In this document: positions 15,137-61,655 of the stretch, piece after piece
How positions within the stretch are numbered: the stretch's first letter is position 1
Layout: each line of letters starts with the position of its first letter
From: Lachnospirales bacterium
Lineage (GTDB): Bacteria; Bacillota; Clostridia; Lachnospirales; CAMZNU01
Assembly: GCA_047974375.1 (NCBI GenBank)
Contig: JBKECF010000015.1
Span: 50,185 to 114,184 of the forward strand
DNA: 64,000 nt
Direction: 5' to 3'
The notes under the pieces: generated by a model
What the model was told of the DNA's origin: nothing
Seen by the model: the letters and a program-made list of their open reading frames with translations, nothing else
Database searches by the model: none
Position numbers and translations under genes: made by a program

Positions 15137-15161
15137 ATTAGCACCTCAATTATTTAGTTGA

Positions 15162-15998: not shown

Positions 15999-16012
15999 TT
16001 GTTCACCACTTT

Positions 16013-16894: not shown

Positions 16895-16958
16895 ATTTAT
16901 TTTACCTCCATAATTTTTTTTAATATAGTTTAATTTATATTTTTGCTTCATTTTCTAC

Positions 16959-17049
16959 TCTAGTGTTCAGCTTTGCTTTATTGCTTGAGCAACCAACTTC
17001 GCAAAAACTAAGCACTCTGCGTTTATCTGCCGTTCATTGCAATTCTATT
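16959..17049. repeat. Copy A of an intergenic repeat family (core CTTCGCAAAAACTAAGCACTCTGCGTTTATCTGCCGTTCAT)
   Basis: About 50 of 59 core positions are identical to the copy at 19311-19372 (hand count). Related to 18598-18705. Lies between the SBP and permease genes of one operon. Confidence 0.7.
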
Positions 17050-17053
17050 AAGC

Positions 17054-17090
17054 CAAAAAACACTTAGGTGTTTCATATACCTAAGTGTTT
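17054..17090 (-). terminator. Intra-operon hairpin/attenuator just after the SBP gene
   Basis: Perfect 11-bp stem AACACTTAGGT/ACCTAAGTGTT, followed on the minus strand by TTTTTT. Confidence 0.6.
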
Positions 17091-17104
17091 TATATAGTCA
17101 GAAA

Positions 17105-18445: not shown

Positions 18446-18597
18446 AAAACCCTCCATTTTTTTAATTATTTAAATATTTTATACTTATAAGATATCATAA
18501 TTTTCTTATTTTTAATGTATACATATGTTGTATTTTGTACAAATTTTACAGATTTTAACATCTAATTACACTTGATATTATAAAAATATTATATTTG

Positions 18598-47863: not shown

Positions 47864-49843
47864 CTATTTTTTTAAAATAAATACATCACGGGGTAAAATT
47901 TCTACCCTGCCTGTTAAAGTTTCATTTGTTAATAAATTTCTAACTTTGTCTTCACCAAAATCTATCCAGCTTTTTTCATGGTTATGGTTTAATACAAAAT
48001 AAATTATATTCTCATTAATTCTTTTTGTCACTTCTACATTTTCACCTGTATAATATTCAGGAGAAAAAGTAAAATTATAATTAATAAAATCTATTAGAAA
48101 ATCTTCTTTTACATCTGTACCTATATAGTACGCATTGCCATCACCATATTTATTTTTTGTTACGGCTGGTAATCCTTTATAAAAATCATATTCGTATACA
48201 CCTAACGCCATTGCACTATCTAGATTTATTAAATCACATAACATATTGGATTTATAAATTTTATTATTGTATTGTACTCCATTATTTTCATCTGGTAGTA
48301 ATGCATCTGTTTCTTCTACTCTTATTCCTAATAGCTCTTTAAGAGGTCCTGGGTATTCTCCAAATACACATTTATCATTATCATCAACTAATCCCGTCAT
48401 GGTTGTTGCTATGAAATTCCCACCTTTTTTAACATAGTCTATTATTTTTTTATCTATGTCATCTTTAATCATATACATCATTGGGGAGATAATAAGCTCG
48501 TAGGAACTCAAATCCCTATTAAAATGTAAAATATCCACAGGTATATTTAAATCATAAAAAACTTTATAATACTTTGCAACAAATTCTAAATAATTAATAT
48601 CTACACTTGGGCCACTAGATTGTTCAAGTGCCCACCAGTTTTCCCAATCAAAAAGAATACCAACTTTAGCGTCTATGGTACCACCAATAAATGCATCTCC
48701 TATTTTTTCAAGTTCTTTACCTAAGTTTGCACATTCCTTAAAAATTCTGGTATCGTTGCGTCCACTATGAGATATCATTGCACCGTGGAACTTTTCTTGT
48801 CCTCCGGTAGATTGCCTTAGTTGGAAATAAAGACAAGTGTCTGCACCATGAGCCATAGCTTGGTAAGCTAGCATTCTTACTTCTCCTGGTTTTTTTAGCT
48901 TATTATAGGGTTGCCAGTTTTGTTGATTTGGTGATTGCTCTGCTAATATATATGGCTGTCCATCTTTTAATCCTCGCATAATATCATGTTTAAAGGCAAC
49001 TAAACTTTTATCGTGAGTTGGCCACGGGTAGTTATCCCAACCAATTACATCCATATGCTTTGCCATTTCAAATTGATTCAACTTCTTTATATAGCCTGAT
49101 ATATTCGTTTGGACAGGAATATTTGGGGTATATTTTTTTAATATATTATATTCATTATTAAAACATTCAACTGTAGAATCAGTAACAAATTTTAAATAAT
49201 CCAACTGTATTATTGGGTTAAATCTGTAATCATCATTTAGTTCCGTTGGTAAAGTAACTTCATCAAACTCATAAACTTGCCTACCCCAAAAAGTTGTATT
49301 CCATTTTTCATTTAAATTATTTATTGTTTTATATTTATTTTGTAACCATTCTCTGAATAGTTTTTGACAATTTTCGCAATAACAGTATGTACCATATTCA
49401 TTAGCTACATGCCATATAGCAAGAGCAGGATGGCTACTATATCTTTTTGCCATTTCCTCTGCTATAGCGCCAGCCCTTTCCCTATATTTTTCACTATTGT
49501 AACAAAAAAACACACGCATGCCATGAGTTCTTTTTCTGCCACTTATATCCACTGGTAAAACCTCGGGATATTTTGTAGAAAGCCAAGACGGTTGTGCCAC
49601 TGTTGGCGTTGCCAAACAAACAGAAATATTATTCTCACTAAATTTATTCATTAATTTATCTAGCCAATCAAAGTCGTATATCCCCTCTGATGGTTCTAAC
49701 TTAGCCCAAGCAAATACTGGTAACGTAACTAAGTTAACACCTAATTCCTTAAAATATTTCATGTCTATATCGATTGTTTCATCGTCCCATTGGTCTGGGT
49801 TATAGTCTCCACCAAAAAAAATTTTATTTGATATTTTAAACAT
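47864..49843 (-). CDS. GH42 beta-galactosidase
   Basis: FFGGDYNPDQW and WHVANEYG (acid/base Glu region), 659 aa, downstream of a sugar ABC operon. Confidence 0.88.
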   Translation of the reverse strand: MFKISNKIFFGGDYNPDQWDDETIDIDMKYFKELGVNLVTLPVFAWAKLEPSEGIYDFDWLDKLMNKFSENNISVCLATPTVAQPSWLSTKYPEVLPVDISGRKRTHGMRVFFCYNSEKYRERAGAIAEEMAKRYSSHPALAIWHVANEYGTYCYCENCQKLFREWLQNKYKTINNLNEKWNTTFWGRQVYEFDEVTLPTELNDDYRFNPIIQLDYLKFVTDSTVECFNNEYNILKKYTPNIPVQTNISGYIKKLNQFEMAKHMDVIGWDNYPWPTHDKSLVAFKHDIMRGLKDGQPYILAEQSPNQQNWQPYNKLKKPGEVRMLAYQAMAHGADTCLYFQLRQSTGGQEKFHGAMISHSGRNDTRIFKECANLGKELEKIGDAFIGGTIDAKVGILFDWENWWALEQSSGPSVDINYLEFVAKYYKVFYDLNIPVDILHFNRDLSSYELIISPMMYMIKDDIDKKIIDYVKKGGNFIATTMTGLVDDNDKCVFGEYPGPLKELLGIRVEETDALLPDENNGVQYNNKIYKSNMLCDLINLDSAMALGVYEYDFYKGLPAVTKNKYGDGNAYYIGTDVKEDFLIDFINYNFTFSPEYYTGENVEVTKRINENIIYFVLNHNHEKSWIDFGEDKVRNLLTNETLTGRVEILPRDVFILKK

Positions 49844-49860
49844 AAATACTCCTTTTATAA

Positions 49861-50667
49861 TTATTTTGTTGAACCAACCATACCTTCTACAAAAGCTCTT
49901 TGTAAAAGGAAAAATACAATTAAGGTAGGTAGTGTTGAAACAAGAATGCCTACCATTATCATTCCATAATCAGGATTAAAATCTGATGCTAAATTTGAAA
50001 CCACTAGAGGCAAAGTAAACTTATTGCTAGTTTGTAATGCAACCAGTGGCCACATATAATTGTTCCAGCTTGCCATAAATGAAAATATACCAGCAGCTGC
50101 ATATGTAGATTTCATCATAGGCATATATATTCTAAAAAATATTTGTAATTCATTTAATCCATCCACCCTGGCGGCTTGAATTGTTTCTCTTGGAAATGAA
50201 TGTGTGTTTTGCTTAAAAAAGAAAACCAAAAAAGGTGTGCCAACTGCCGGTAAAATGATTGCTAAATAAGAATTTAATAGCCCAATATTCGCAAACATTC
50301 TAAACATAGGAATAATTTTAGATGCAAAGGGAACCATCATGGATGCAATTAAAACTATTAGCACTATTTCTTTTGCCTTGGAACTAAAAATTACAAAAGC
50401 ATATCCCGCCATTGAACAAATAATTAATGAAAGTGAAGTAATAATTATTGCCAACTGTGCCGAATTTATAAAAGCAGACCAAATATCTGAGTGTTCAAAA
50501 GCATTTCGTACATTTTCAAAAAAGTAATTTCCAAAAGAAAGCTTACCAAGAGTAATATCCTTTGAGATGTTTGTAGAACTAACTATCATCCAGTAAAAGG
50601 GAAAAACACAAAGAAATGATGCACTTAACATAAAAATTTGTTTTAAAATATTTTTAACTTTTTCCAT
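49861..50667 (-). CDS. Carbohydrate ABC transporter permease (MalG type)
   Basis: 268 aa with EAA loop ETIQAARVDGLN. Confidence 0.85.
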   Translation of the reverse strand: MEKVKNILKQIFMLSASFLCVFPFYWMIVSSTNISKDITLGKLSFGNYFFENVRNAFEHSDIWSAFINSAQLAIIITSLSLIICSMAGYAFVIFSSKAKEIVLIVLIASMMVPFASKIIPMFRMFANIGLLNSYLAIILPAVGTPFLVFFFKQNTHSFPRETIQAARVDGLNELQIFFRIYMPMMKSTYAAAGIFSFMASWNNYMWPLVALQTSNKFTLPLVVSNLASDFNPDYGMIMVGILVSTLPTLIVFFLLQRAFVEGMVGSTK

Positions 50668-50676
50668 AATATTCTC

Positions 50677-51558
50677 CTACTCCTCTTTCATAAATTTTTT
50701 TTGAACAATTGTTAGCAATATAACGATTACTAAAACTATATAGGATACAGCCGCAGCATATCCATAATTCGGTACATATACAAAAGATAAATTATAAATA
50801 TATTGAGAAATACTCATTGTAGCATTACCAGGTCCGCCATTAGTAAGGTTGACCACTTCATCAAAAATTTGTAATGTAGAATTTAATGCCATTATACTTG
50901 TTAAAAAAATAATTGGTTTCAATAATGGCATTGTTATACTTGTAAATATCCTTGCACTGTTAGCTCCATCGATTTTTCCAGCCTCATAAACTGACTTATC
51001 AATATTCTGTAATGCAGATAAATAAAATATCATATAGTATCCTGTGCTTTTCCAAACTAAAGCAATTATAATAAGTATTTTACCCCAAAATGCATCTAAT
51101 ACAAAGGGAATACCAGTTTCGATTAAGCCAAAGGTAATTAATAGTTTATTTACTAGTCCATCTACAGCGAAAAGATTTTTAAATAAAATGGCATAGGAAA
51201 CAGGGGCTGTAACACAAGGTAAAAAAATACAGGTCCTATATATACCCCTAAATTTTAGAGTATTATCATTTAATATAACCGCAAAAATTAAAGAAAATAA
51301 AAGCATTATTGGTATATGAACTGTATATATAATAGTATTTTTTAAAGTTTCAATAAAAACTGCATCCGTAAATAGTCTTTTGTAATTTTCTATTCCGGCA
51401 TAACTTAAATTAACACCTTTACCAGTTTTAAGAGACAATATAAAAGCTTGAATCATAGGAATATAAGCAAAAATTAAAATCATTAATGTAGCAATTAAAA
51501 TCATTGACCAACCTGAAAATTTATATTTTTTTGACAAAAAATCACAACCTTCTCTCAT
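50677..51558 (-). CDS. Carbohydrate ABC transporter permease (MalF type)
   Basis: EAA loop VYEAGKIDGAN. The track start (GTG 51573) lies inside the upstream hairpin stem. ATG 51558, or TTG 51537 preceded by GAGAAGG, is more plausible. Confidence 0.8.
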   Translation of the reverse strand: MREGCDFLSKKYKFSGWSMILIATLMILIFAYIPMIQAFILSLKTGKGVNLSYAGIENYKRLFTDAVFIETLKNTIIYTVHIPIMLLFSLIFAVILNDNTLKFRGIYRTCIFLPCVTAPVSYAILFKNLFAVDGLVNKLLITFGLIETGIPFVLDAFWGKILIIIALVWKSTGYYMIFYLSALQNIDKSVYEAGKIDGANSARIFTSITMPLLKPIIFLTSIMALNSTLQIFDEVVNLTNGGPGNATMSISQYIYNLSFVYVPNYGYAAAVSYIVLVIVILLTIVQKKFMKEE

Positions 51559-51560
51559 AT

Positions 51561-51600
51561 TTATAAAAGACACTAATTTAATTTTTTTGAAATTAGTGTC
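51561..51600 (-). terminator. Intra-operon hairpin/attenuator after the SBP gene
   Basis: Perfect 11-bp stem GACACTAATTT/AAATTAGTGTC followed on the minus strand by TTTT. Confidence 0.5.
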
Positions 51601-51613
51601 TTTAAATTATTTG

Positions 51614-52927
51614 CTATTGAACCATTTGACTGTATTGAATTGTGGCATCTTCTAGTGCTTTTTGTAAATCTCCATTTTGTAAATACGTTGGCATAACAGC
51701 CTTAAGGGCTTCTTGTGCTTCTGCAGAATATGCCCCTGTATATACGGCAGGAATTTTACTTAACCAATTAGCTAAATCTGCATTTAATTTTTGACCTCCA
51801 TAAAATTCCATTTCAATATTAAAGGCATCTACATCTCCAGCAGGTAAATATGTTCCCATAATATTCTTTTCACCTAACAAAGTATTGTACAGTTCTGTAC
51901 TACTGGCAAAGGTATTGGCAAGAAAATCCAAAGCTACATCTGCATTAGTACTATTTTCTAAAATAAACCAACTAGAACCACCTTGGTTAGAATAATTTGT
52001 TGCCAACTCAACATTTAAAGAAGGAACCGGTGCTACTGACCAAAGACCACTTTGGCTTGGTTCCTGCATAATTGTAGGTGATATCCATGAACCTCTAATT
52101 ACACATGCTACATCACCACTATTTATTGCCCCTGTAAATTCTGTCCAGTCACTAACAAGTTTAACATTGTCAGAATCATTAAAAGTTTTAAATATTTCAA
52201 AACATTGTTTCAATGCCTCGTTATTTTCAAAGTTAGCATTTCCAGCTTCGTCAGTAAACCAAGTTCCAGCAGACTGAAGCATTATTTGAAATTCAGACAC
52301 ATCATTAGGATTATAAGTTTGTAAGTAATGTCCTTTTTCTTTTAATAGCTCGCCTAGGGCTATATACTTATCCCAAGTTAAGTTTTGCATATCCTCCTCT
52401 GTATATCCAACTTCTTCAATATAATCCTTACGATAAAATAATCCAGCCACACCTGTATCAAAAGGAACACCATAACCAACGCCATCAAATGAAAGCATTG
52501 GCTCTTTATAAGCAGCAAAGTCATTATAATTAATTTTTTCATCTACAGCTTTAAAAGAACCTGGATAAGACATTAAATATCCTTGTGCATTTAAATCGCT
52601 TATTGCTACTACCTCTGGTAATTCATCTGTTACACCCGAAGCTAATACTGTATGTAATTTTTGTAAAACATCTGCCTTGCCCATTTCAACAAAATTTATA
52701 TCTGCATCATTATAAATCTTATCAGCTTCTTCCATAGCAAAACCATTAAAAGTTTTATCCCATGCCCAAACAGTAACTTCTTCCTCGCTGCTTTCATCTG
52801 GTGAGTTTTTTGCCTCGTTTTTTGTATCACTTATAGAAGACTCATTTTCTTCATAATTAGAACTACATCCAACTCCAAAAACCGTCGCCATACAAAGTAC
52901 AATTAAAAATTTATTTTTTCTTTTCAT
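51614..52927 (-). CDS. Sugar ABC transporter substrate-binding lipoprotein
   Basis: MKRKNKFLIVLCMATVFGVGCSS lipobox. Start is ATG 52927 after GGAGGT. Confidence 0.85.
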   Translation of the reverse strand: MKRKNKFLIVLCMATVFGVGCSSNYEENESSISDTKNEAKNSPDESSEEEVTVWAWDKTFNGFAMEEADKIYNDADINFVEMGKADVLQKLHTVLASGVTDELPEVVAISDLNAQGYLMSYPGSFKAVDEKINYNDFAAYKEPMLSFDGVGYGVPFDTGVAGLFYRKDYIEEVGYTEEDMQNLTWDKYIALGELLKEKGHYLQTYNPNDVSEFQIMLQSAGTWFTDEAGNANFENNEALKQCFEIFKTFNDSDNVKLVSDWTEFTGAINSGDVACVIRGSWISPTIMQEPSQSGLWSVAPVPSLNVELATNYSNQGGSSWFILENSTNADVALDFLANTFASSTELYNTLLGEKNIMGTYLPAGDVDAFNIEMEFYGGQKLNADLANWLSKIPAVYTGAYSAEAQEALKAVMPTYLQNGDLQKALEDATIQYSQMVQ

Positions 52928-53107
52928 ATAAACCTCCATTTTTTATAAACACTTTAACTTTTGTTTATATATAGGTTATCATATAAATGTGGCTTTATAT
53001 TGTGATGTTTTTTTGTAAAATGTGCACTTTTTTTATAATGGCATCTAAAAATTACTTTTTTATCCTATTATGAATATAACCTTAAGAATAAAAAGAAAGG
53101 AAAAACC

Positions 53108-55210
53108 ATGAATATAAATGAATTATATAGAAATAAATTAAAATCCTTTAATAAAAAAATAATTGTACTTGATGATGACCCTACAGGAACACAAACCGTA
53201 CAAGATATAACCGTTTATACCAAATCTACCTATAAATATATAAAAGAAGGTTTTTTAGAAAATTCCCCTATGTTTTTTATTCTTACAAATTCTAGAAGCT
53301 TTTCTGAAGATGAAACAAAATATTACCATGAAGAAATAGCGCAAAAAATAGAACAAGTATCCATTGAATTATCCATGGATTATATAATAATTTCCAGAAG
53401 TGATTCAACGCTTCGAGGCCACTATCCTATAGAAACTGAAATTATAAATGAAACCTTAGGTGGCTTCCATGGGGAAATAATTTGCCCTTTTTTTTACGAG
53501 GGTAAAAGATTTACTTTTAACAATACTCATTACTTGGAGCAAAATGGAAATTTACTGCAAGTAAGTGAAACAGAATTTGCAAAGGATAAAACATTTGGTT
53601 ATAAAAATTCACACTTAGGCAAATTCATAGAAGAAAAATCCAATGGTAGCTATTTAGAAAAAGACACCATTTATATTGAACTTGATGAAATACGCAAATA
53701 CAATTTATATTCCATTAAAGAAAAACTTTTTTCTGCCGAAAAATTTACGAAGATAGTTGTAAATGCAATGTGCTATGAAGATTTAAAAGTATTTACTATT
53801 GCCCTAATTGATGTAATAAATACAGGGAAATCATTTTTATTTAGAACAGCAGCATCTTTTCCGAAAATAATTGGCGGTGTAATAGACGTGCCTTTACTAA
53901 ATGGTTTTGACTTAACAAAAGATAACAAAGGAGGGATAATAATAATAGGTTCATATGTTCAAAAAACTACAGAACAATTAAATGAGCTTATAAATAATTA
54001 TAATTTAGACTTTCAAGAATTTAATGTTTACAAAATATCAGAAACCAACGGACTACAAAAAGAAACTTCAAGAATTGTGTCTATTTGTAATGCAAATATA
54101 ATAAAAGGCAAAACCACAGTTATTTATACTAGTCGTAAATTAATAAACACAAAAGAAATGAGTAAAGAAGAAGCCCTTAAAATGTCCGTTGATATATCAA
54201 GTTCATTTACAAAAATCATAGGACAACTAGAATCGAGACCCAAATATATACTAGCTAAAGGTGGTATGACAGCAAGCGATGTGGCAACAATAGCCCTAAA
54301 AGTAACAAAGGGCAAAATATTAGGACAAATCGAAAAAGGTATACCCGTATGGTTAACTGATAATAATAGCAAATTCCCATGTATTCCCTATATAATTTTT
54401 CCAGGTAATGTTGGAGAAGTTGAAACATTAAATAATATTGTAAAAGGGTTGGAAGAATACGACTATAAAAGTGTAATTATATCCGTTGCACCTATTAGTA
54501 CTTCAACCCATTTAAATATAAAAACTCTATGTGAAGATGTAAGGAAATGTTCAGAGCTTGGAGCTTCAATTTGTCATCTATCTTCAAAAAATATAATATA
54601 CACAAATAAAGTTCTTCAATACATTTACAACAACGACATTATTATACAAACTTCTCTAGAAAAAGGGTTAACATCACTTACTTATGAAAAAGTTATAAGT
54701 TCTTCAGTAATAGGAGGCTCAATTAACCTTGATGGAGAAGTTTACATAAATTCTACAAATGATATAAAACTTTTTCTAGAAACAATAACAGAGAAAAATA
54801 TAACACCAGAAATAGATATTTATGACATTTCCATGATATACAACATAGTTGATTTACAAAAAGAACTGAATTTTAAAAGACCTATAATCTATAATCTTGT
54901 TTTTGGCCGTGAAGGTGGACTACCAGCTACAATTGAATGTCTTACTACTTTAAAATCTTTTGTACCAGATAACTGCATATGGGGTGTAACTCATTATGAA
55001 CGCAAAGACTGGTCTTTTATTACCACCGCTCTTGGAATGGGAGCAAAACTCATAAGAGTTGGCTTTGAAAATAGCTCCTATCTTTCTAATAATATAAAAG
55101 CAAAATATAATTATGAAATATTAAAAGAACTAGCTCAAATAATTAAGGCAATAGGGCTGAAAACATCTACCGATAATACCACGAAAAAAATAATACAGGC
55201 TAAATTTTAA
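53108..55210 (+). CDS. Fusion protein: four-carbon acid sugar kinase family (DUF1537-type, aa 1-~452) plus a BKACE/DUF849-like TIM-barrel domain (aa ~453-700)
   Basis: N-terminal part: IIVLDDDPTGTQTVQD, SRSDSTLRGHY, ILAKGGMTASDV, PYIIFPGNVG. C-terminal part: VIISVAPIST, ASICHLSS, GREGGLPATIECL, CIWGVTHYER, GAKLIRVGFENS. These are colinear with 3-keto-5-aminohexanoate cleavage enzyme family motifs as I recall them. Confidence 0.6.
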   Translation: MNINELYRNKLKSFNKKIIVLDDDPTGTQTVQDITVYTKSTYKYIKEGFLENSPMFFILTNSRSFSEDETKYYHEEIAQKIEQVSIELSMDYIIISRSDSTLRGHYPIETEIINETLGGFHGEIICPFFYEGKRFTFNNTHYLEQNGNLLQVSETEFAKDKTFGYKNSHLGKFIEEKSNGSYLEKDTIYIELDEIRKYNLYSIKEKLFSAEKFTKIVVNAMCYEDLKVFTIALIDVINTGKSFLFRTAASFPKIIGGVIDVPLLNGFDLTKDNKGGIIIIGSYVQKTTEQLNELINNYNLDFQEFNVYKISETNGLQKETSRIVSICNANIIKGKTTVIYTSRKLINTKEMSKEEALKMSVDISSSFTKIIGQLESRPKYILAKGGMTASDVATIALKVTKGKILGQIEKGIPVWLTDNNSKFPCIPYIIFPGNVGEVETLNNIVKGLEEYDYKSVIISVAPISTSTHLNIKTLCEDVRKCSELGASICHLSSKNIIYTNKVLQYIYNNDIIIQTSLEKGLTSLTYEKVISSSVIGGSINLDGEVYINSTNDIKLFLETITEKNITPEIDIYDISMIYNIVDLQKELNFKRPIIYNLVFGREGGLPATIECLTTLKSFVPDNCIWGVTHYERKDWSFITTALGMGAKLIRVGFENSSYLSNNIKAKYNYEILKELAQIIKAIGLKTSTDNTTKKIIQAKF

Positions 55211-55381: not shown

Positions 55382-56959
55382 CTATTTATTTTTTAAATAC
55401 TCTTCTATTTGACGAATTACCTCAGTTTTTATTTTAGGTAGACCCGCAATTTCCGCTTTAGAGTTAAGCTCTATTAAAGTTTCCTCTACATTGTCCACCA
55501 ATCCTAAATCTAATAGTGGTACGTACTGAGTATATACGCTTTGTAAATTTGCTAACTCGTTTTTTACATTTGTATCGTCAAATGAAAATGCATCTGTAGG
55601 TAAACTTAAGGCTTTATCTGTCCAAATTTCACCTAGTGTAACTTGATCGGAAAATGTACCTTCTCGTGTCATATCATACATAGTATTTTTGAACCCCCAA
55701 GAAAACGCATTGCCATAAGGGTATCTTTCCATTTCTTCACTTGGTTTCCATGTTGTTTCATTTACTATTTCGTAGTGTTTTCCTTCAATGCCATGACGAA
55801 CTAACCTATATAAGCTCTCATCAAACTTTAATATATCTAATGCCATAAAAGCACGCTCTTGGTTTTTAGAATTTGCCACAACAGCAATTCCATCTCCTGT
55901 ATAGCTTGATAAAAATCTGTTGGTATTTGGAAATAAGTCATATATTTCTGGTTTCCACTCTGGATGAGCAATCTCTACTTCTGATGCTAAAGCGCCTACA
56001 GTACCTAAATTTTGCACATAGCTTGCACTAGTTCCATTTAAAAATGATTCTTTTGGATCTGTAGCATTAGCTATTGCGCTTTTAGACCAATATCCTTCGT
56101 CTGCCCATTTTTTCATTTGTTTCGCATAATCCATATAATTCTCTGATTTAAATAGCCAAAATACATCATCTTGTGTAAAATCTTCTGAATATTCATAAGT
56201 AAAGTAATTTATTAATGAACCCTCCATAAGAGCCCAATCATTTTTTAGATTAATTAATACTTTTCTTAAATTATCATTGTGCTGTGATGCATTATAAGGA
56301 AATGAAACTCCTGAATCCTTATCCGTTGCTACTTCCTTAAAATATCTTGCTAAATCATCTTCCGATACAAGCCTTTCCATACCATATTTTTCTCTTAGAT
56401 CTCCACGTATTAATACGGCATTTGCATTTACCTTTGCCATATTACATGGAACAAAGTAAACTTTTCCATCTATTTTTGATTGTCCCCAAGATGCTTCTGC
56501 TTGATTTTTTTTATGAAGCGGCATATAGCTATTTAAAACAGTATCTGTTATTTCCGTAAACGCACCTTTGTTAGCCTCGGATTGGTAAAATGCCCAAGTT
56601 GAAGAATAAATTAAATCAAAATCTTCACCCCCAGCTATGGTTAAGGCGTATTTTGTTGAATAATCGCTTAAAGACATACTTTTAAGAGAGAGAGTTGCAT
56701 TTATTTTTTCTTTAAGGGTTTTATTTATTTCATCTAAAACTAAATCCTCGTCTTCTGTTTTATCTCCTATATAGTACATAGCCAGCTCAACAGGTTCTGA
56801 TATATCTTGATCATTGTATACTGCTGCTATTTTTTCGCTATTTGTTTTGGTTTCCTGAATAATTTCAGAACTCTCATTGTTTTTAGCACAACTTACCATA
56901 ATACTAATTATTACCAGTATTGTCAGAAAATGTTTAATAATTTTTACAGTTTTTTTCAT
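55382..56959 (-). CDS. Extracellular solute-binding lipoprotein, LplA-like (large family-1 SBP)
   Basis: 525 aa, lipobox MVSC, in operon with LplB/LplC-type permeases. Confidence 0.8.
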   Translation of the reverse strand: MKKTVKIIKHFLTILVIISIMVSCAKNNESSEIIQETKTNSEKIAAVYNDQDISEPVELAMYYIGDKTEDEDLVLDEINKTLKEKINATLSLKSMSLSDYSTKYALTIAGGEDFDLIYSSTWAFYQSEANKGAFTEITDTVLNSYMPLHKKNQAEASWGQSKIDGKVYFVPCNMAKVNANAVLIRGDLREKYGMERLVSEDDLARYFKEVATDKDSGVSFPYNASQHNDNLRKVLINLKNDWALMEGSLINYFTYEYSEDFTQDDVFWLFKSENYMDYAKQMKKWADEGYWSKSAIANATDPKESFLNGTSASYVQNLGTVGALASEVEIAHPEWKPEIYDLFPNTNRFLSSYTGDGIAVVANSKNQERAFMALDILKFDESLYRLVRHGIEGKHYEIVNETTWKPSEEMERYPYGNAFSWGFKNTMYDMTREGTFSDQVTLGEIWTDKALSLPTDAFSFDDTNVKNELANLQSVYTQYVPLLDLGLVDNVEETLIELNSKAEIAGLPKIKTEVIRQIEEYLKNK

Positions 56960-56973
56960 AAAATCCTCCTATT

Positions 56974-57900
56974 TTATCCTTTTACAGATCCAAGTGTTAG
57001 CCCTTTTACAAAGTATCTTTGTACAAATGGGTACAGAAAAATAATAGGGCCTGTTACCACAACAGTTAATGCCATTTTCATTGATTCAATTGGCACTGTT
57101 TCAACAACTAAGCCTGACTCTGACGCTAGTTCACGTAGAACCTTAGCGTCATTAATTAACTTGTAAAGCTGATATTGTAAGCTATATAAATTGCTTTCAT
57201 TTATAAATAACATGGAATTATACCAATCATTCCAATATGTTAATGCTGTAAAAAGCCCAATAGTAGCAATAACTGGTTTAGAAAGAGGTAATATTAGTTT
57301 TATAAATATTTTAAAGTCACCTGCTCCATCAATTTTAGCCGCCTCTGTCATTTCATAAGGCACACTTGCCATAAATCCTTTTACTAAAAGTATGTTCCAC
57401 ACAGATACAATACCTGGTAAAATCATAGCCCAAACACTATCTTTTAAATTTAAATATTTTACGCACAATATATACCACGGCATTAACCCACCACTAAAAA
57501 GAGTAGTGAAGAAATAAAAAAATGATATTTTGTTCCTCCATTCAAAGTCTTTTCTTTGTAAAACATAACCTGCCATTGTGTTTAAAAATATGCCAAGTGT
57601 CGTGCCAATAGAAGTAACAAATATTGTAACACCATAGGCCCTTAGTATTGTTTTAGGGCTACTAAAAATAGTCATATAGCTCTCTAAAGAAAAATCATAA
57701 GGTATAATACTATATCCATTTCTAATGATATAATTCTCTGAATTAAAGGAAGATCCAATAACAATTAAAAAAGGTATTAAACAAACTAAAGCAAAAGTAA
57801 ATACTATAGGGTATCCTATTAATTTAAAAACGAAAATATCTTTTCCATTATTCATCTTCATATAATTAAAGCCTTTCTTAAAATAATGCATAGTTTTCAT
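56974..57900 (-). CDS. Carbohydrate ABC transporter permease (LplC type)
   Basis: EAA loop MTEAAKIDGAG. Alternative start ATG 57861 (MKMNNGKD) would avoid the overlap with the upstream gene. Confidence 0.82.
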   Translation of the reverse strand: MKTMHYFKKGFNYMKMNNGKDIFVFKLIGYPIVFTFALVCLIPFLIVIGSSFNSENYIIRNGYSIIPYDFSLESYMTIFSSPKTILRAYGVTIFVTSIGTTLGIFLNTMAGYVLQRKDFEWRNKISFFYFFTTLFSGGLMPWYILCVKYLNLKDSVWAMILPGIVSVWNILLVKGFMASVPYEMTEAAKIDGAGDFKIFIKLILPLSKPVIATIGLFTALTYWNDWYNSMLFINESNLYSLQYQLYKLINDAKVLRELASESGLVVETVPIESMKMALTVVVTGPIIFLYPFVQRYFVKGLTLGSVKG

Positions 57901-58801
57901 CTTTTCTTTTAACTATGTAATTTACAATTAATATTGTTATAAAACAAAGTATGGATTGATATAATCCAATAGCAACGGTTTGGCCTATATCTGTTGATGC
58001 AATTGTCATCCTAAATACATATGTATCAATCACATCAGTTTTATCAAACAAAGCTCCATTTTGTCCTACAAGCTGATAAAATAAGTCTAAATTACCCTTA
58101 AATATTTTGCCTATAGCCAAAAGTGTTAATGTAATTATAGTAGGTGTTATACTTGGTAAGGTTATATTTTTTATTCTATGAAAAATATTAGCTCCATCAA
58201 TTTCTGCAGCTTCATACAGTGCTCCATCTACACCTAAAATAGATGCTAAATAAATAACTACACCATATCCAACACCTTTCCATGCTGAAAATGCTACAAT
58301 TATATAGGGCCACCAATTTGGTTCGCCATAGAAATTTATGGGGCTTATTCCTAAAGTTTCCAAAAAATTGTTAATTGTTCCTGTTTCAAAAGAAAATAAA
58401 CTATAACAAATAGCGCCAACTGTTACCCACGAAATAAAATAGGGTAAAAAAATTATGGATTGTGTTCCTTTTTTTAACTTTATTCTTCTCATTTCACTTA
58501 AAATAATAGCTATAAAAATTTCTAAAATTGTATTAACGAATATAAAAATAAAATTATAAAACAAAGTATTTTTTGTAACTAAAAGAGCTTTGCCAGATTG
58601 AAAAAAAAACTTAAAATTATCTAAGCCAACCCAAGGACTCCTAAATAATCCATCTGTGTAATTAAATCTCTTAAAAGCTAATACTAGTCCGCCAATAGGT
58701 AGGTATGCAAAAATAAATAATAAAACTATAGACGGTAACAACATAAGTAGCAAAGTTCTATAGTCGTAAACCTTCTTCAAAAATTTTTTTCCCTTTGTCA
58801 T
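57878..58801 (-). CDS. Carbohydrate ABC transporter permease (LplB type)
   Basis: EAA loop LYEAAEIDGAN, 307 aa. Confidence 0.85.
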   Translation of the reverse strand: MTKGKKFLKKVYDYRTLLLMLLPSIVLLFIFAYLPIGGLVLAFKRFNYTDGLFRSPWVGLDNFKFFFQSGKALLVTKNTLFYNFIFIFVNTILEIFIAIILSEMRRIKLKKGTQSIIFLPYFISWVTVGAICYSLFSFETGTINNFLETLGISPINFYGEPNWWPYIIVAFSAWKGVGYGVVIYLASILGVDGALYEAAEIDGANIFHRIKNITLPSITPTIITLTLLAIGKIFKGNLDLFYQLVGQNGALFDKTDVIDTYVFRMTIASTDIGQTVAIGLYQSILCFITILIVNYIVKRKDENYALF

Positions 58802-58813
58802 AATTACTCCTTT

Positions 58814-60574
58814 CTAGGCTAATATAAATGGTAATTTTACAGTTACACAGGTTCCTTTTCCTAATTGACTTTCATAAATCAGCCCATAACTTTCACCAAA
58901 CATCAATTTAATTCTTTCATTAACATTCTTCACCCCATAACTTCCGTCGCCATTTAAATTAGCTTCATCTTTAAGTATATTCAACAACATATTACTACTC
59001 ATACCAACGCCGTCATCAATTATCTTAATAAAAATGCTATTACTCTCCCTATAACCAATAATACTAATTATTCCTGATTTACTATTTTTTTCACAAATTC
59101 CATGAATGATAGCATTTTCCACCAATGGTTGAAGTATTATTTTAGGAACAACACAGTAGTAAATATTTTCATCAACTTCTTCAATATAGGTAATTTTATT
59201 TTCAAATCTAAGTTTTTGTATTTTGATGTAGCAATTTACATGCATTATTTCTTTTTTTAGTGTTAAATTTTCTTCACCACCATTTAATATAAGCCTATAA
59301 TATTTTGATAGAGCTACAACAGCTATATGTATATCATTTTTTCTATCATTAAAAGTTAACCAATTCAACATATCCAAGGTATTATACAAAAAATGCGGAT
59401 TTATTTGAGATTGTAAGGCTTTTAGCTCAGCACTTTTTAGTTCTATACCTATGTTGTATTTTTCGTCTATTAAATTCTTTGTGTTTCTAATCATTTCATT
59501 ATAATTTTCATATAAAATTCCTAACTCATCCTTTGTGTCGCAGGGTAAATACACGTCTATATCACCATCTTTAACTTGGTTAAAACTTTCATTCAGCAAT
59601 GTTATTTTTCCTACCACCCAAGAAACAATAAGTGCACCTATAATTACTGTTAAAATGCCAAAAAACATTAAAAGTCCCGCTACCTTGTACTGTAAGCCTG
59701 ATATTCCTTGTGTTAAATCGCTTCGCGGAATTATAGTTACCATTTCCCAGTTTGTATTTTTGATTTTATCTCGCAAAAAATAGATTTGCTTTCCAGCTAA
59801 CTTACCTTCCGTAAGTTTTCCAGTAAAATCATATTTTGAATATCCAAATTTATTTAGTGAAATAGGCAGGCTTTCGTAATTTGAGGCTGCTATTATTGTA
59901 TTTTCTTCGTTAACTATAAAGGTAACAGAATTTTCCGTAGGTGTGGCATTGCATAGGATACTAACAATATTCTCTACATCTATATCCATCCTAAGCACAA
60001 AACTTCTCATTTTATAATTATCAATTTTTGTTATATCTCTAACTAAAGCAACGCATCCATCAGTATTTTCTAAATATATATTAGGTGCAAAATATATTTT
60101 TCTATTTCCTTTATTTTTATACCATAGCGAATTAATAGCATCCGATAGATGATAGACATACTTACCATCCTTAAGTAAAGTAAATTTATCATCTACATAA
60201 ATTTTTATGTTAATACCTTGTGCCCCACTTTCCACACTTTGTATATAACTTATTATCTCTTTGTTTAAAAGCATTTGCCTATGTGGATCAGCAGATTTTA
60301 TTAATTCATCTTGTATTATATTTTTCAAATTATTATTTGTTGCAATAACATCTGTCCGCTGAATTAATTCAAATATCTTATAGTTCAAATATTCTTTAGA
60401 TTGTTCATAACCTTGAACTGCTGAATATTGAATTTTCTCTAGCATATGCTTAGAAACCTCAACATAAATAATCATGCTGACAAATATAAGCGGAATAATA
60501 AATAGAGTACTATAAAAAATAGCAAACTTTTGTTTTAATTTAAAATTTCTAAAGCTTTGTTTTAATCTTTTCAT
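58814..60574 (-). CDS. Sensor histidine kinase, YesM-like (two TM helices, HAMP, His_kinase, HATPase)
   Basis: QINPHFLYNTLD H-box of the PF06580 type and a C-terminal ATPase domain (DDGVGM, GLIYESQLGKGT). Confidence 0.85.
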   Translation of the reverse strand: MKRLKQSFRNFKLKQKFAIFYSTLFIIPLIFVSMIIYVEVSKHMLEKIQYSAVQGYEQSKEYLNYKIFELIQRTDVIATNNNLKNIIQDELIKSADPHRQMLLNKEIISYIQSVESGAQGINIKIYVDDKFTLLKDGKYVYHLSDAINSLWYKNKGNRKIYFAPNIYLENTDGCVALVRDITKIDNYKMRSFVLRMDIDVENIVSILCNATPTENSVTFIVNEENTIIAASNYESLPISLNKFGYSKYDFTGKLTEGKLAGKQIYFLRDKIKNTNWEMVTIIPRSDLTQGISGLQYKVAGLLMFFGILTVIIGALIVSWVVGKITLLNESFNQVKDGDIDVYLPCDTKDELGILYENYNEMIRNTKNLIDEKYNIGIELKSAELKALQSQINPHFLYNTLDMLNWLTFNDRKNDIHIAVVALSKYYRLILNGGEENLTLKKEIMHVNCYIKIQKLRFENKITYIEEVDENIYYCVVPKIILQPLVENAIIHGICEKNSKSGIISIIGYRESNSIFIKIIDDGVGMSSNMLLNILKDEANLNGDGSYGVKNVNERIKLMFGESYGLIYESQLGKGTCVTVKLPFILA

Positions 60575-61361
60575 TATTGCATTTCCTTAGATAGTCAGCC
60601 GGAGTTATACCTTCGTGTCTTTTGTATATTTTTATAAAATAGCTACAGTCTGAAAATCCAGATTTAATAGCAACTTTTTTAACTTTCACATATGGATTGC
60701 GTGACATATATTCATTCGCCCATTTTAATCTAGTTTTTGTAATATACCTATTGATGGTTTCTTTTTTTTCTTTTTTAAAAAGCCAACACATATATTGTTT
60801 TGCTAAATTAAATTCCTCAGCTAAAACCGTAAGTGATAAGTCAGCATTAAAAAAATTCTCTTTTATGTAAATTTCTATTCTATCTGCAATTTTCATTGTA
60901 GCTTGCCAGTTATCTTCATCTAGCATTTCTATTCCAACCTTAAAATGTTCTTTATATTCCTTTTCTATTGCTGCTCTTCTATGTTCCTTTTCCAACTGGA
61001 TAATGGATTTTTTTACAGCATTAATTACTTCTAATATTTCAATAGGTTTTTCAATATAATCAACAGCAGAAAGATGAATAGCAGACTTTAAATACGCTTT
61101 GTCACAATAACCACTAATAAATATAAAACGACATTTTTTCCATTTTTTAGAAATTTCAAAAGCCATTGTAATGCCGTCCATTCTTGCCATTCTTACATCT
61201 GTTAATATAATATCTGGTTTAAGTTCCATTGCCATATTTAACCCTTGCTCACCATCTTCAGCTGTATATACTTCTGATACGCCAAGGGTATTCCATGGTA
61301 TATTATTTTTCATTCCTAATCTAGTTAATTCCTCGTCGTCAACTAACAAAACTCTCACCAT
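60549..61361 (-). CDS. Response regulator, YesN-like (CheY receiver plus AraC-type HTH)
   Basis: MVRVLLVDDEE...DIILTDVRM receiver domain and a C-terminal AraC HTH. Start is ATG 61361; the track start adds 11 residues. Confidence 0.85.
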   Translation of the reverse strand: MVRVLLVDDEELTRLGMKNNIPWNTLGVSEVYTAEDGEQGLNMAMELKPDIILTDVRMARMDGITMAFEISKKWKKCRFIFISGYCDKAYLKSAIHLSAVDYIEKPIEILEVINAVKKSIIQLEKEHRRAAIEKEYKEHFKVGIEMLDEDNWQATMKIADRIEIYIKENFFNADLSLTVLAEEFNLAKQYMCWLFKKEKKETINRYITKTRLKWANEYMSRNPYVKVKKVAIKSGFSDCSYFIKIYKRHEGITPADYLRKCNNEKIKTKL

Positions 61362-61655
61362 AACGCCACCACTCCCCATTGTGTACTTGCACAATAAATT
61401 ATATCAGTTAACTATTAGTATATTCATTATATCACTTTAATCATTTGCACAATATAGTATATTATTAATATTACATATTAAATATTTAAGATTTATGCAA
61501 TATTTATACATATTTAACTCAAGTAACATTATGAATTTAATTTACTACCTGAAAAATTTATGTACTTTTCTGAAAAATTTATATATTACATAGAAAAAAA
61601 TTTATATTAAAATACTAATAAGTGTTTTAAAAAATTATAGTTAGGATGGTGAATT

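What the first reader, a model, noticed from the sequence alone, without database searches (positions are those of the whole stretch)
53108..55210. Fusion of a four-carbon acid sugar kinase with a BKACE/DUF849-like barrel lacking one metal-binding histidine
The first ~452 aa match the DUF1537-type kinase family (OtnK/DtnK relatives, the DDDPTGTQ subtype). The last ~248 aa are colinear with the beta-keto acid cleavage enzyme family. At the position of the canonical H-x-H zinc motif the sequence reads CHLSS, so the second His is Ser, while the later VG-x-E-N/D region is retained. I am not aware of this two-domain architecture being described. It could channel a phosphorylated sugar acid into a C-C cleavage or condensation step, or the barrel could be a non-catalytic module. 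The gene stands alone between two carbohydrate-uptake operons.
Basis: partly seen in the sequence, partly recalled or inferred. Interest (0 to 1): 0.58.

Follow-up and report, generated by a model that had tools for sequence, protein, structure and literature searches.

The report
Sugar-acid kinase fused to decayed barrel
One gene joins an acid-sugar kinase to a zinc-barrel enzyme domain that has lost much of its catalytic machinery; in about 80 related gut Clostridia the two parts are neighbouring genes inside a cluster for digesting a rare pectin side chain, which points to a still undescribed breakdown route for the plant sugar aceric acid.

Summary
ORF 53108-55210 (+) encodes a 700-aa in-frame fusion of a DUF1537 acid-sugar kinase and a BKACE/DUF849 barrel that reads CHLSS where relatives read CHLHC.

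The gene does not stand alone. In 63 of 68 related loci the kinase gene lies directly upstream of a stand-alone BKACE-like gene, or with only a small racemase-like gene between them. The recurrent cassette also has a GH127 hydrolase, which in 7 loci is itself fused to the kinase. It further carries rhamnosidases, an apiosidase-like enzyme, GH42, a histidine kinase/AraC regulator pair and an ABC importer. The window holds most of these parts.

The window's GH127 is most similar to PDB 5MQO, which I recall as BT1003, the aceric-acid hydrolase. I infer that the kinase/barrel pair catabolises the acid sugar that GH127 releases, most likely L-aceric acid. I found no published pathway for it.

The missing histidine is peculiar to this protein. 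Its barrel differs at 36 of 94 subfamily-invariant positions, against 11% for its own kinase half and 9% for its GH127. The differences include a zinc ligand, the catalytic Glu (now Asp), an adjacent Asp and two loops. The barrel still folds and stays in frame, so it is probably a catalytically impaired or repurposed domain.

The parts
53108..55210 (+). Fusion gene, 700 aa: DUF1537 kinase plus BKACE-like barrel
   Evidence: The identical protein is P0001, from an NCBI Lachnospirales MAG, where it is named 'four-carbon acid sugar kinase family protein'. It is also encoded on L087.
53159..53860 (+). Kinase sugar-binding domain (Pfam SBD_N, residues 18-251), with the DDDPTGTQ motif
   Evidence: The residues that are invariant across relatives are retained.
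53939..54430 (+). Kinase nucleotide-binding domain (Pfam NBD_C, residues 278-441)
   Evidence: The model matches solved DUF1537 folds.
54440..54472 (+). Fusion junction (residues about 445-455, ...KGLEEYDYKSV...)
   Evidence: The junction is in frame, has no long homopolymer, and is identical in two assemblies. Unfused pairs are separated by -14 to about +80 nt. A split form and a fused form coexist within one 90% identity cluster.
54464..55207 (+). BKACE/DUF849-fold barrel (residues 453-700), strongly diverged
   Evidence: Pfam BKACE, E 1.3e-31. AlphaFold pLDDT 87. Foldseek TM 0.85-0.89 to BKACE structures. The domain differs at 36 of 94 subfamily-invariant columns.
54575..54583 (+). H490-L491-S492, at the position of the HxH zinc motif (Kce His46/His48)
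   Evidence: Alignment to Kce 2y7d. The subfamily reads CHLH.
54815..54817 (+). D570, at the position of the catalytic-base Glu (Kce E143, BKACE15 E171)
   Evidence: alignment. The subfamily reads PEIEVFD and the window reads PEIDIYD. E171D in BKACE15 keeps about 5% of activity (PMC11961710).
55055..55072 (+). R650-V-G-F-E654-N655. Arg and the Glu zinc ligand are retained; the adjacent Asp is Asn
55382..58801 (-). ABC importer: lipoprotein-type solute-binding protein (DUF3502) and two permeases
   Evidence: The permeases belong to clusters c4/c5, which occur in 42-45 related loci.
58814..61394 (-). Histidine kinase (586 aa) and AraC-type response regulator (281 aa)
   Evidence: Clusters c3/c6, found in 45 and 38 related loci, usually directly downstream of the kinase/BKACE pair.
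61656..63599 (+). GH127 glycoside hydrolase (647 aa), cytoplasmic
   Evidence: Pfam GH127 catalytic domain, E 3e-82. Best solved relative is 5mqo at 512 bits, against 300 bits for the next. Homologues are adjacent to or fused with the kinase in 47 of 87 loci.
47864..52939 (-). GH42 beta-galactosidase and a second ABC importer (solute-binding protein and two permeases)
   Evidence: GH42 (c11) recurs in 14 related loci.
13895..18457 (-). Solute-binding protein, two permeases and a GH63-like hydrolase. The same module follows the fusion gene in L002-L006

Best explanation
The gene is a genuine 'Rosetta-stone' fusion of two genes that are normally adjacent and often overlapping in Lachnospiraceae, Blautia and other Clostridia. 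These are a distinct subfamily of DUF1537 acid-sugar kinases and a tight subfamily of BKACE-fold barrels that keep the zinc-ligand residues.

Together with a single-cysteine member of the Asp/Glu-racemase superfamily, they form the metabolic core of a cassette. The cassette imports fragments of a pectin side chain (rhamnogalacturonan-II chain-B type) through an ABC transporter, or the free acid through a TRAP transporter. It then dismantles the fragments in the cytoplasm with a GH127 hydrolase, GH78/GH106 rhamnosidases, an apiosidase-like enzyme, GH42, GH29 and an acetylesterase.

Inferred mechanism:
1. GH127 releases L-aceric acid.
2. The acid is isomerised to its 2-keto form, which is a beta-keto acid and the methyl homologue of 3-oxo-isoapionate.
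3. The kinase phosphorylates the new primary hydroxyl.
4. The barrel binds the beta-keto-acid phosphate through its metal and decarboxylates or cleaves it. This would give a 5-deoxy-pentulose phosphate that an aldolase can split into DHAP and acetaldehyde.

In this window's copy the kinase half is intact but the barrel has decayed. One zinc histidine, the neighbouring Asp, an Asn, a His and two active-site loops are lost, and the catalytic Glu is Asp. No racemase-like gene is nearby. The barrel is therefore most likely catalytically impaired, and is kept as a folded module attached to the kinase or put to a modified use.

Shown: the architecture, the gene-pair conservation, the cassette content and the asymmetric decay. 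Inferred: the substrate, the order of steps and the loss of activity.

The overall confidence of 0.55 is for the whole statement. By part it is roughly:
- real fusion of a conserved gene pair: 0.95
- pectin-side-chain cassette: 0.85
- aceric acid as the substrate: 0.45-0.5
- barrel catalytically impaired: 0.55-0.6
For: - Domains and folds.
- Gene pairing: 53 of 68 stand-alone BKACE-like genes have the kinase immediately upstream, and 10 more have only the racemase-like gene in between. Intergenic distances are mostly -14 to +80 nt.
- Independent fusions: kinase+BKACE in at least 3 lineages and GH127+kinase in 7 loci. Fused and split forms coexist within one 90% cluster and differ by a frame change at the junction.
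- Cassette content in 51 loci of at least 15 kb: kinase 47, racemase-like 38, GH127 28, GH63-like 16, GH78 18, GH106 10, apiosidase-like 10. Of these loci, 45 carry at least one pectin-side-chain-type hydrolase or esterase.
- A separate isomerase, split transketolase and FGGY kinase set sits in the same loci. It matches the composition of the published apiose pathway (PMC13001218), so apiose appears to be handled by other genes.
- TRAP transporter/GntR versions without any hydrolase (L001, L018, L075) indicate that the substrate is a free carboxylate.
- The window's GH127 scores 512 bits against 5mqo and 300 bits against the next solved GH127, an arabinofuranosidase.
- BT1003 (GH127) is the aceric-acid hydrolase (PMC10850190, PMC13501991).
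- B. thetaiotaomicron secretes AceA-Rha-Api during growth on RG-II (bioRxiv 10.64898/2026.03.13.711244).
- Decay: the barrel differs at 36 of 94 invariant columns (38%), against 12 of 113 for the kinase and 22 of 242 for GH127 in the same organism. The median for other members is 0.
- Catalytic positions: H48 to Ser, E143 to Asp, D231 to Asn.
- The frame stays open: 0 of 20,000 shuffles remain open.
- There are no close relatives of the degenerate form among 1.84 billion representatives.
- No racemase-like gene is present in the 64 kb window or just beyond it.
Against: - Nothing here is biochemical.
- The GH127 specificity rests on similarity to one structure, and I know that structure as BT1003 only from memory. 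Most characterised GH127 enzymes are beta-L-arabinofuranosidases.
- Only about 55% of the loci carry GH127. The others carry a GH63-like enzyme or an unknown 589-aa protein whose role is not known.
- The canonical barrels keep all six Kce catalytic positions. That fits acetyl-CoA-dependent Claisen chemistry at least as well as simple decarboxylation.
- No conserved aldolase was found in the cassette.
- His490, Glu654 and Arg650 remain in the window's barrel, so some metal or substrate binding may persist.
- There is only one sequence of the degenerate type, so selection on it cannot be measured.
Confidence: 0.55

Rival explanations
1. The window's barrel is still an enzyme. The changes (His to Ser, Asp to Asn, Glu to Asp, shortened loops) have retuned the site for a different metal, such as Mg or Mn through oxygen ligands, or for a different substrate or reaction. 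This would be neofunctionalisation rather than decay.
For: - The reading frame is maintained over 248 codons in a 30% GC genome.
- The barrel is confidently predicted.
- His490, Glu654, Arg650 and Ser656 are retained.
- The fold family already contains a non-CoA zinc enzyme, cis-epoxysuccinate hydrolase 5zmu.
Against: - Losses are spread over 36 of 94 invariant positions, including structural ones, rather than confined to a few specificity residues.
- No clade shares the new residues, so there is no sign of a conserved new function.
- E to D at the catalytic base left about 5% activity in BKACE15.
- The loops next to the deletions have pLDDT below 50 in the full-length model.
Confidence: 0.25
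2. The pair carries out canonical BKACE chemistry. The kinase product, or the kinase substrate, is a beta-keto acid that the barrel cleaves with acetyl-CoA to give acetoacetate plus an acyl-CoA. The substrate need not be aceric acid.
For: - Canonical subfamily members keep the HxH, Glu and Arg residues and the catalytic-base Glu.
- They score 215 bits against the Kce model, their closest NCBIfam family.
- A BKACE is proposed in an acid-sugar pathway, the cleavage of ketodeoxyribonate (title and abstract of 10.1101/205583, listed).
- In L001 the barrel gene is followed by a phosphotransacylase and a microcompartment locus.
Against: - The score is well below the Kce equivalog cut-off of 382 bits.
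- The beta-keto acid expected from a branched acid sugar has a fully substituted alpha carbon, unlike known BKACE substrates. This point rests on my own knowledge.
- No CoA-handling genes recur in the cassette.
- In the window's copy the required residues are lost.
Confidence: 0.25
3. The kinase acts on an ordinary four-carbon acid (threonate, erythronate or 3-oxo-tetronate, for example from ascorbate breakdown). Its position among carbohydrate genes is incidental.
For: - The Pfam families and the NCBI product name fit.
- There is a weak match to the D-threonate kinase model.
Against: - The match is 54 bits against a cut-off of 450.
- None of the usual partner genes (PdxA2-type dehydrogenase, class II aldolase-type decarboxylase, isomerase) recur in 87 loci.
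- The kinase is physically fused to a GH127 in 7 loci.
Confidence: 0.1
4. The fusion is an assembly or sequencing frameshift that joins two genes.
For: - In a related lineage the fused and split forms differ only by a frame change at the junction.
- The window comes from a metagenome-assembled genome.
Against: - Two assemblies give identical junction DNA.
- The junction has no long homopolymer, and the barrel has no in-frame start codon of its own.
- Both domains align in one frame with only about 3 linker residues.
- Fusions also occur in an isolate genome and on dozens of independent contigs.
Confidence: 0.03

Closest known systems
DUF1537 acid-sugar kinases (DtnK, DenK, OtnK; also the 3-oxo-isoapionate kinase of apiose catabolism, Carter et al. 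2018, recalled from my own knowledge because the paper is not held)
   Same: - Same two Pfam domains and same fold.
- ATP-dependent phosphorylation of small acid sugars is the known family function (PMC10971088).
- In the known pathways the kinase product is passed on to a decarboxylating step.
   Different: - This is a distinct, longer subfamily (about 450-495 aa).
- A sequence profile finds no solved DUF1537 structure.
- It scores 54 bits against a 450-bit cut-off for DtnK.
- Its partners are a BKACE-fold barrel, a racemase-like protein and GH127, not PdxA2, a class II aldolase-type decarboxylase or a RuBisCO-like protein.
Beta-keto acid cleavage enzymes (Kce 2y7d; BKACE15 8rio/9hnf)
   Same: - TIM-barrel fold with TM 0.85-0.89.
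- The Pfam match is above threshold.
- Canonical subfamily members keep the zinc ligands, the Arg and the catalytic Glu.
   Different: - The window's domain lacks His48, Asp231 and Asn108, has Asp in place of the catalytic Glu, and lacks two loops.
- It scores 108 bits against a 382-bit cut-off for Kce.
- It is covalently fused to a kinase.
- Its context is glycan catabolism, not lysine fermentation or carnitine breakdown.
Bacteroides thetaiotaomicron RG-II degradation apparatus (BT1003 GH127 aceric-acid hydrolase, GH78/GH106 rhamnosidases, GH140 apiosidase, GH138; Ndeh et al. 2017)
   Same: The same enzyme families recur around the kinase/barrel pair. The window's GH127 is most similar to 5mqo.
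   Different: - This is a Gram-positive, cytoplasmic version built on an ABC importer and a two-component regulator.
- It includes candidate catabolic enzymes for the released acid sugar. To my knowledge, none have been described in Bacteroides.
D-apiose transketolase pathway (aplK, aptA, aptB; MetaCyc PWY-8089)
   Same: An isomerase, a split transketolase and an FGGY kinase sit in 9 of the related loci (PMC13001218).
   Different: It is a neighbour in the cassette, not the finding itself, and it is absent from this window. Its presence argues that the DUF1537 kinase serves another sugar.

Membership tests
DUF1537 four-carbon acid sugar kinase family | N-terminal sugar-binding domain (PF07005) and C-terminal nucleotide-binding domain (PF17042) above Pfam gathering scores | tested here: met
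   146.9 bits against a cut-off of 25, and 96.1 bits against 28.3.
DUF1537 four-carbon acid sugar kinase family | Two-domain fold of the solved DUF1537 structures | tested here: met
   The full-length model matches 3dqq, 5dmh and 1yzy with Foldseek E about 1e-16 to 1e-17 and TM up to 0.74 on the target. Sequence-only PDB searches found no DUF1537 structure.
DUF1537 four-carbon acid sugar kinase family | Membership of a characterised orthologue group (for example D-threonate kinase, NF047819) | tested here: not met
   54.4 bits against a cut-off of 450.
DUF1537 four-carbon acid sugar kinase family | ATP-dependent phosphorylation of an acid sugar | not testable with these tools
   This needs an enzyme assay.
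BKACE / DUF849 | Pfam PF05853 match above the gathering score, and the TIM-barrel fold | tested here: met
   110.5 bits against a cut-off of 24.8. TM 0.85-0.89 to 3lot, 8rio and 2y7d.
BKACE / DUF849 | Zinc site of two His (HxH) and one Glu | tested here: not met
   H490-L-S492: the second His is Ser. Glu654 is kept. The identity of the ligands comes from my knowledge of Bellinzoni et al. 2011. One Zn per site is confirmed in PMC11961710.
BKACE / DUF849 | Catalytic-base Glu (E171 of BKACE15, E143 of Kce) | tested here: not met
   Asp570 occupies the position of the Glu that is at least 95% conserved in the subfamily. E171D keeps about 5% activity.
BKACE / DUF849 | Membership of a characterised orthologue group (Kce, NF052387) | tested here: not met
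   107.6 bits against a cut-off of 382. A canonical subfamily member scores 214.9 bits.
BKACE / DUF849 | Acetyl-CoA-dependent cleavage of a beta-keto acid | not testable with these tools
   This needs an enzyme assay.
Kinase/BKACE-like/racemase-like cassette of Clostridia (defined here) | Kinase and BKACE-like coding regions adjacent or fused | tested here: met
   They are fused in the window, and adjacent in 63 of 68 related loci.
Kinase/BKACE-like/racemase-like cassette of Clostridia (defined here) | Asp/Glu-racemase-family gene within the locus (38 of 51 long loci) | tested here: not met
   tblastn finds nothing in the 64 kb window or directly downstream of GH127 in L087.
Kinase/BKACE-like/racemase-like cassette of Clostridia (defined here) | GH127, histidine kinase/AraC regulator and ABC importer in the locus | tested here: met
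   Window 55382-63599.
GH127 aceric-acid hydrolase (BT1003-like), for the neighbouring gene | Closer to BT1003 than to the beta-L-arabinofuranosidases | tested here: inconclusive
   512 bits to 5mqo against 300 bits or less to other solved GH127 enzymes. That 5mqo is BT1003 is from my memory, because the source paper is not held. Activity was not tested.

The most novel reading that the evidence does not exclude
The conserved trio of DUF1537 kinase, BKACE-fold barrel and single-cysteine racemase-like protein is the missing catabolic pathway for L-aceric acid, the branched acid sugar of rhamnogalacturonan-II. Gut Lachnospiraceae and Blautia would use it to feed on chain-B fragments such as AceA-Rha-Api that Bacteroides releases. 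In that pathway a BKACE-fold enzyme would act on a phosphorylated sugar-derived beta-keto acid, a reaction type not yet known for the family.
Probability: 0.4. Interest if true: 0.8.

Novelty: new variant of a known kind. Interest (0 to 1): 0.64.

Why it matters
Rhamnogalacturonan-II is described as the most complex plant glycan. Its depolymerisation by gut Bacteroides is well mapped, but I found no description of how its rare acid sugar, aceric acid, is metabolised.

The fusion is a pointer to a candidate answer. It physically links a kinase and a barrel enzyme, and elsewhere the kinase is fused to a GH127 that resembles the aceric-acid hydrolase. That yields a short, testable list of candidate enzymes, which are present in cultured strains of Blautia, Murimonas, Robinsoniella and Anaerocolumna. 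It would also extend both DUF1537 and BKACE chemistry, and it suggests a route for cross-feeding between Bacteroides and Firmicutes on pectin.

The window's own copy adds a case of one half of a fused enzyme decaying while the other half stays intact.

Tried and rejected
- **Sequencing frameshift at the junction:** rejected.
- **The missing His is a feature of the architecture:** rejected, because the other fusions keep HLH and GFED.
- **AT-rich drift explains the barrel's divergence:** rejected as the sole cause. Both halves have about the same composition (GC about 0.29, FYMINK about 0.40), yet the barrel lost 38% of invariant positions and the kinase 11%.
- **A conserved clade shares the degenerate barrel:** none was found among 1.84 billion representatives.
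- **Racemase-like gene in or just beyond the window:** none found. An exact look-up of the GH127 product found no record.
- **Apiose-derived acid as the substrate:** considered less likely. The loci carry a separate transketolase-type apiose pathway and none of the oxidative-pathway genes.
- **Connecting the kinase half to solved structures by sequence:** failed, both with one sequence and with a profile. It succeeded only by fold.
- **Key papers not held:** Ndeh 2017, Carter 2018 and Zhang 2016. A full-text search for '5MQO' found nothing.
- **Counting fusions with a junction-spanning query:** uninformative, because the tool did not return even the source protein.
- **Promoter and terminator scans around the gene:** not informative in this AT-rich sequence.
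- **The 589-aa protein c19:** no Pfam, NCBIfam or PDB match.
Full report
**1. The observation**

The ORF at 53108-55210 (+) is a single 700-codon frame. Pfam places SBD_N at residues 18-251, NBD_C at 278-441 and BKACE at 472-696, all far above threshold. NCBIfam shows that neither half belongs to a characterised orthologue group. The kinase half scores 54 bits against a 450-bit cut-off for D-threonate kinase, and the barrel scores 108 bits against 382 for Kce.

A full-length AlphaFold model (pLDDT 80.5) finds solved DUF1537 structures for the N-terminal two-thirds and BKACE structures for the rest. The C-terminal domain modelled alone is a confident barrel (pLDDT 87, pTM 0.87) with TM 0.85-0.89 to DUF849/BKACE structures.

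**2. The fusion is real and rare**

The identical protein is annotated in an NCBI Lachnospirales MAG, and it is also encoded on a separately assembled Logan contig with identical junction DNA. The junction (…KGLEEYDYKSVIIS…) has no long homopolymer, and the barrel has no in-frame start codon of its own.

Only three other fusion clusters surfaced among the best hits in 5.8 billion proteins. A fourth is the 747-aa protein of the isolate Murimonas intestini DSM 26524. GenBank and UniRef hold it as 'uncharacterized protein (DUF849 family)', while RefSeq calls only its last 264 aa.

Within one 90% identity cluster, fused 751-aa forms coexist with split 479 + 280-aa forms. In the split forms the barrel ORF starts upstream in another frame, so a single indel in an overlapping gene pair is enough to create the fusion. 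Neighbour-joining trees place the fusions in at least three separate positions among unfused relatives.

**3. What the fusion reflects**

The barrel belongs to a tight subfamily of about 265-280-aa proteins, with 66.5% mean identity among 74 members. I collected 80 species-level genome loci around this subfamily, together with contigs for the fusions. I then called ORFs, clustered them and annotated the recurrent clusters.

Of 68 stand-alone barrel genes, 53 have the DUF1537 kinase immediately upstream, and 10 more have only a small Asp/Glu-racemase-family gene between them. Spacing is typically -14 to +80 nt.

The recurrent arrangement is: racemase-like, GH127, kinase, barrel, GH78 rhamnosidase, histidine kinase, AraC-type response regulator, solute-binding protein and two permeases. 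In seven loci, one of them from an isolate, the GH127 and the kinase are a single protein of about 1,120 aa.

Other recurrent neighbours:
- GH106 rhamnosidase
- an apiosidase-like protein
- GH42
- GH29
- a SASA acetylesterase
- a protein that matches NCBIfam's alpha-D-galacturonidase model (978 bits against a cut-off of 1300), which I take to be GH138-like
- a GH63-like hydrolase
- an isomerase, split transketolase and FGGY kinase set, which has the composition of the published D-apiose pathway (PMC13001218)

Three loci replace all the hydrolases with a TRAP transporter and a GntR regulator. In one of these (L001) the pair sits just upstream of a bacterial microcompartment locus with aldolases, an aldehyde dehydrogenase and a phosphotransacylase.

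**4. The window carries the same cassette, rearranged**

On the strand opposite the fusion gene lie the response regulator, the histidine kinase, two permeases and a solute-binding protein (55382-61394). Beyond them is a GH127 (61656-63599, Pfam E 3e-82). GH42 with a second importer lies upstream (47864-52939), and the importer/GH63-like module lies at 13895-18457. The gene therefore does not stand alone. What the window lacks is the racemase-like gene.

**5. Which substrate**

DUF1537 enzymes phosphorylate small acid sugars (PMC10971088), and TRAP transporters take up carboxylates (my own knowledge). The hydrolase set matches the sugars of rhamnogalacturonan-II chain B: 2-O-methyl-fucose, galactose, aceric acid, rhamnose and apiose, with acetyl groups (bioRxiv 10.64898/2026.03.13.711244). 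GH127 includes BT1003, the aceric-acid hydrolase (PMC10850190, PMC13501991).

The window's GH127 aligns over its full length with PDB 5mqo at 512 bits, against 300 bits or less for the arabinofuranosidases, and the family's Glu/Cys motifs are conserved. I know 5mqo as BT1003 from memory and could not verify this here.

The same preprint reports that wild-type B. thetaiotaomicron secretes the trisaccharide AceA-Rha-Api. That is exactly what a cassette of ABC importer, GH127, rhamnosidase and apiose pathway could consume. Apiose seems to be handled by its own genes, which leaves aceric acid as the acid sugar in need of a kinase. I found no paper on aceric-acid catabolism, and none that links DUF1537 with BKACE.

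**6. Proposed chemistry (inference)**

Aceric acid is 3-C-carboxy-5-deoxy-L-xylose and has no primary hydroxyl. Aldose-ketose isomerisation would create one. It would also produce a beta-keto acid that is the methyl homologue of 3-oxo-isoapionate, the substrate of a known DUF1537 kinase (Carter et al. 2018, my own knowledge).

Phosphorylation followed by decarboxylation would give a 5-deoxy-pentulose 1-phosphate, which can be cleaved to DHAP and acetaldehyde. This fits the microcompartment and aldolase genes of L001.

The barrel, whose family binds beta-keto acids on zinc, would be the decarboxylase or the cleavage enzyme. The racemase-like protein keeps only the first catalytic Cys (C77); the second position is Ser. 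It is a candidate single-base isomerase.

Because canonical barrels keep every Kce catalytic position, an acetyl-CoA-dependent reaction cannot be excluded. The fold family also includes a CoA-independent zinc hydrolase (5zmu).

Three loci have a transaldolase/FSA-like gene in place of the kinase, which hints at a non-phosphorylating variant.

**7. What is peculiar to this protein**

Among 74 other subfamily members, 94 alignment columns are at least 95% identical. The window's barrel differs at 36 of them, while the median for the others is 0 and the maximum is 11.

| Domain (window organism) | Invariant columns changed | Mean identity, window vs others | Mean identity, others vs others |
|---|---|---|---|
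| Barrel | 36 of 94 (38%) | 39.5% | 66.5% |
| Kinase half | 12 of 113 (11%) | 47.8% | 53.6% |
| GH127 | 22 of 242 (9%) | 54.2% | 65.7% |

(All values in the table are.)

I mapped the Kce positions using the alignment with a six-residue construct offset. The offset is self-consistent for His46/48, Arg226 and Glu230, and it agrees with E171/R254 of BKACE15.

| Kce position | Window residue | State |
|---|---|---|
| His46 | His490 | kept |
| His48 | Ser492 | lost |
| Asn108 | Ile535 | lost |
| Glu143 (catalytic base; E171D in BKACE15 keeps about 5% activity) | Asp570 | conservative change |
| Arg226 | Arg650 | kept |
| Glu230 | Glu654 | kept |
| Asp231 | Asn655 | lost |

In addition, the subfamily's 'DGxLTPD' and 'TGGVSxM' loops are deleted, and FGHK reads FGRE.

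The two halves have the same base composition, so AT pressure alone does not explain the asymmetry. The frame is clearly under selection to stay open (0 of 20,000 shuffles remain open), and the fold is retained. An exhaustive search of 1.84 billion representatives found no other protein with this degenerate form; the next hit is 38-40% identical.

The most economical reading is a catalytically impaired barrel that is kept as a structural or binding module of an intact kinase. A retuned active site remains possible.

**8. Verdict**

The families are known. The architecture, the gene pair, the GH127-kinase fusion and the implied pathway are not described in the literature I could search. I file the finding as a new variant of known kinds. 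Its real interest lies in the candidate aceric-acid pathway that it exposes.

Noticed in passing
L016, L025, L028, L041, L053, L068, L085 (ORFs ending just before position 10000 of each locus): In seven loci the GH127 glycoside hydrolase and the DUF1537 kinase form a single protein of about 1,105-1,174 aa. One locus is from the isolate 'Bacterium 1xD8-48'. A hydrolase fused to a kinase for its likely product is an unusual architecture.
   Followed up: partly
L060:10875-12638 and homologues in L026, L058, L069, L077, L036, L048, L049: A conserved protein of about 589 aa with no Pfam, NCBIfam or PDB match lies directly downstream of the BKACE-like gene. It occurs only in loci that lack GH127, so it may be a non-homologous replacement for that hydrolase.
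   Followed up: partly
L036:8147-12629 (also L048, L049): These loci have a transaldolase/FSA-like gene, the racemase-like gene, the BKACE-like gene and the unknown 589-aa gene, but no DUF1537 kinase. This may be a non-phosphorylating variant of the pathway.
   Followed up: no
L001:2033-16872: The kinase/BKACE-like pair, with a TRAP transporter, a GntR regulator and the racemase-like gene, sits directly upstream of a bacterial microcompartment locus (PduL-type phosphotransacylase, EutN, aldehyde dehydrogenase, PduS-like protein, shell proteins, DeoC and a class II aldolase).
   Followed up: partly
L075:4211-4888 and 52 homologues: The racemase-like partner conserves only the first catalytic cysteine of the Asp/Glu/hydantoin racemase superfamily (C77, in NLCSSVGE). 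The second catalytic position reads QGSMA, with a Ser, so it is unlikely to be a two-base racemase.
   Followed up: partly
window 33535-43275 (-): A 3,246-aa highly repetitive secreted protein with long internal repeats and what look like C-terminal S-layer-homology-type repeats. It is probably a cell-surface protein.
   Followed up: no
P0004 cluster (P0487, P0488 against P0004): Within one 90% identity cluster, fused 751-aa proteins and split 479 + 280-aa pairs coexist. They differ by a frame change at the junction.
   Followed up: yes
L066:8561-10804 (Murimonas intestini DSM 26524): GenBank and UniRef hold the 747-aa fusion as 'uncharacterized protein (DUF849 family)'. RefSeq annotates only a 264-aa 'BKACE family enzyme' at that place, so the fused architecture is under-represented in RefSeq annotation.
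   Followed up: partly
(tool behaviour): A homologue search with residues 388-745 of P0002 did not return P0002 or any other fusion among its best 120 hits. Counts of fusions from that tool are therefore lower bounds.
   Followed up: no
window 47146-47781 (-): A short (211-aa) ORF next to GH42 whose C-terminal half looks like an AraC-type helix-turn-helix (judged by eye; no profile search was run). It uses a TTG start and has no recognisable sensor domain.
   Followed up: no
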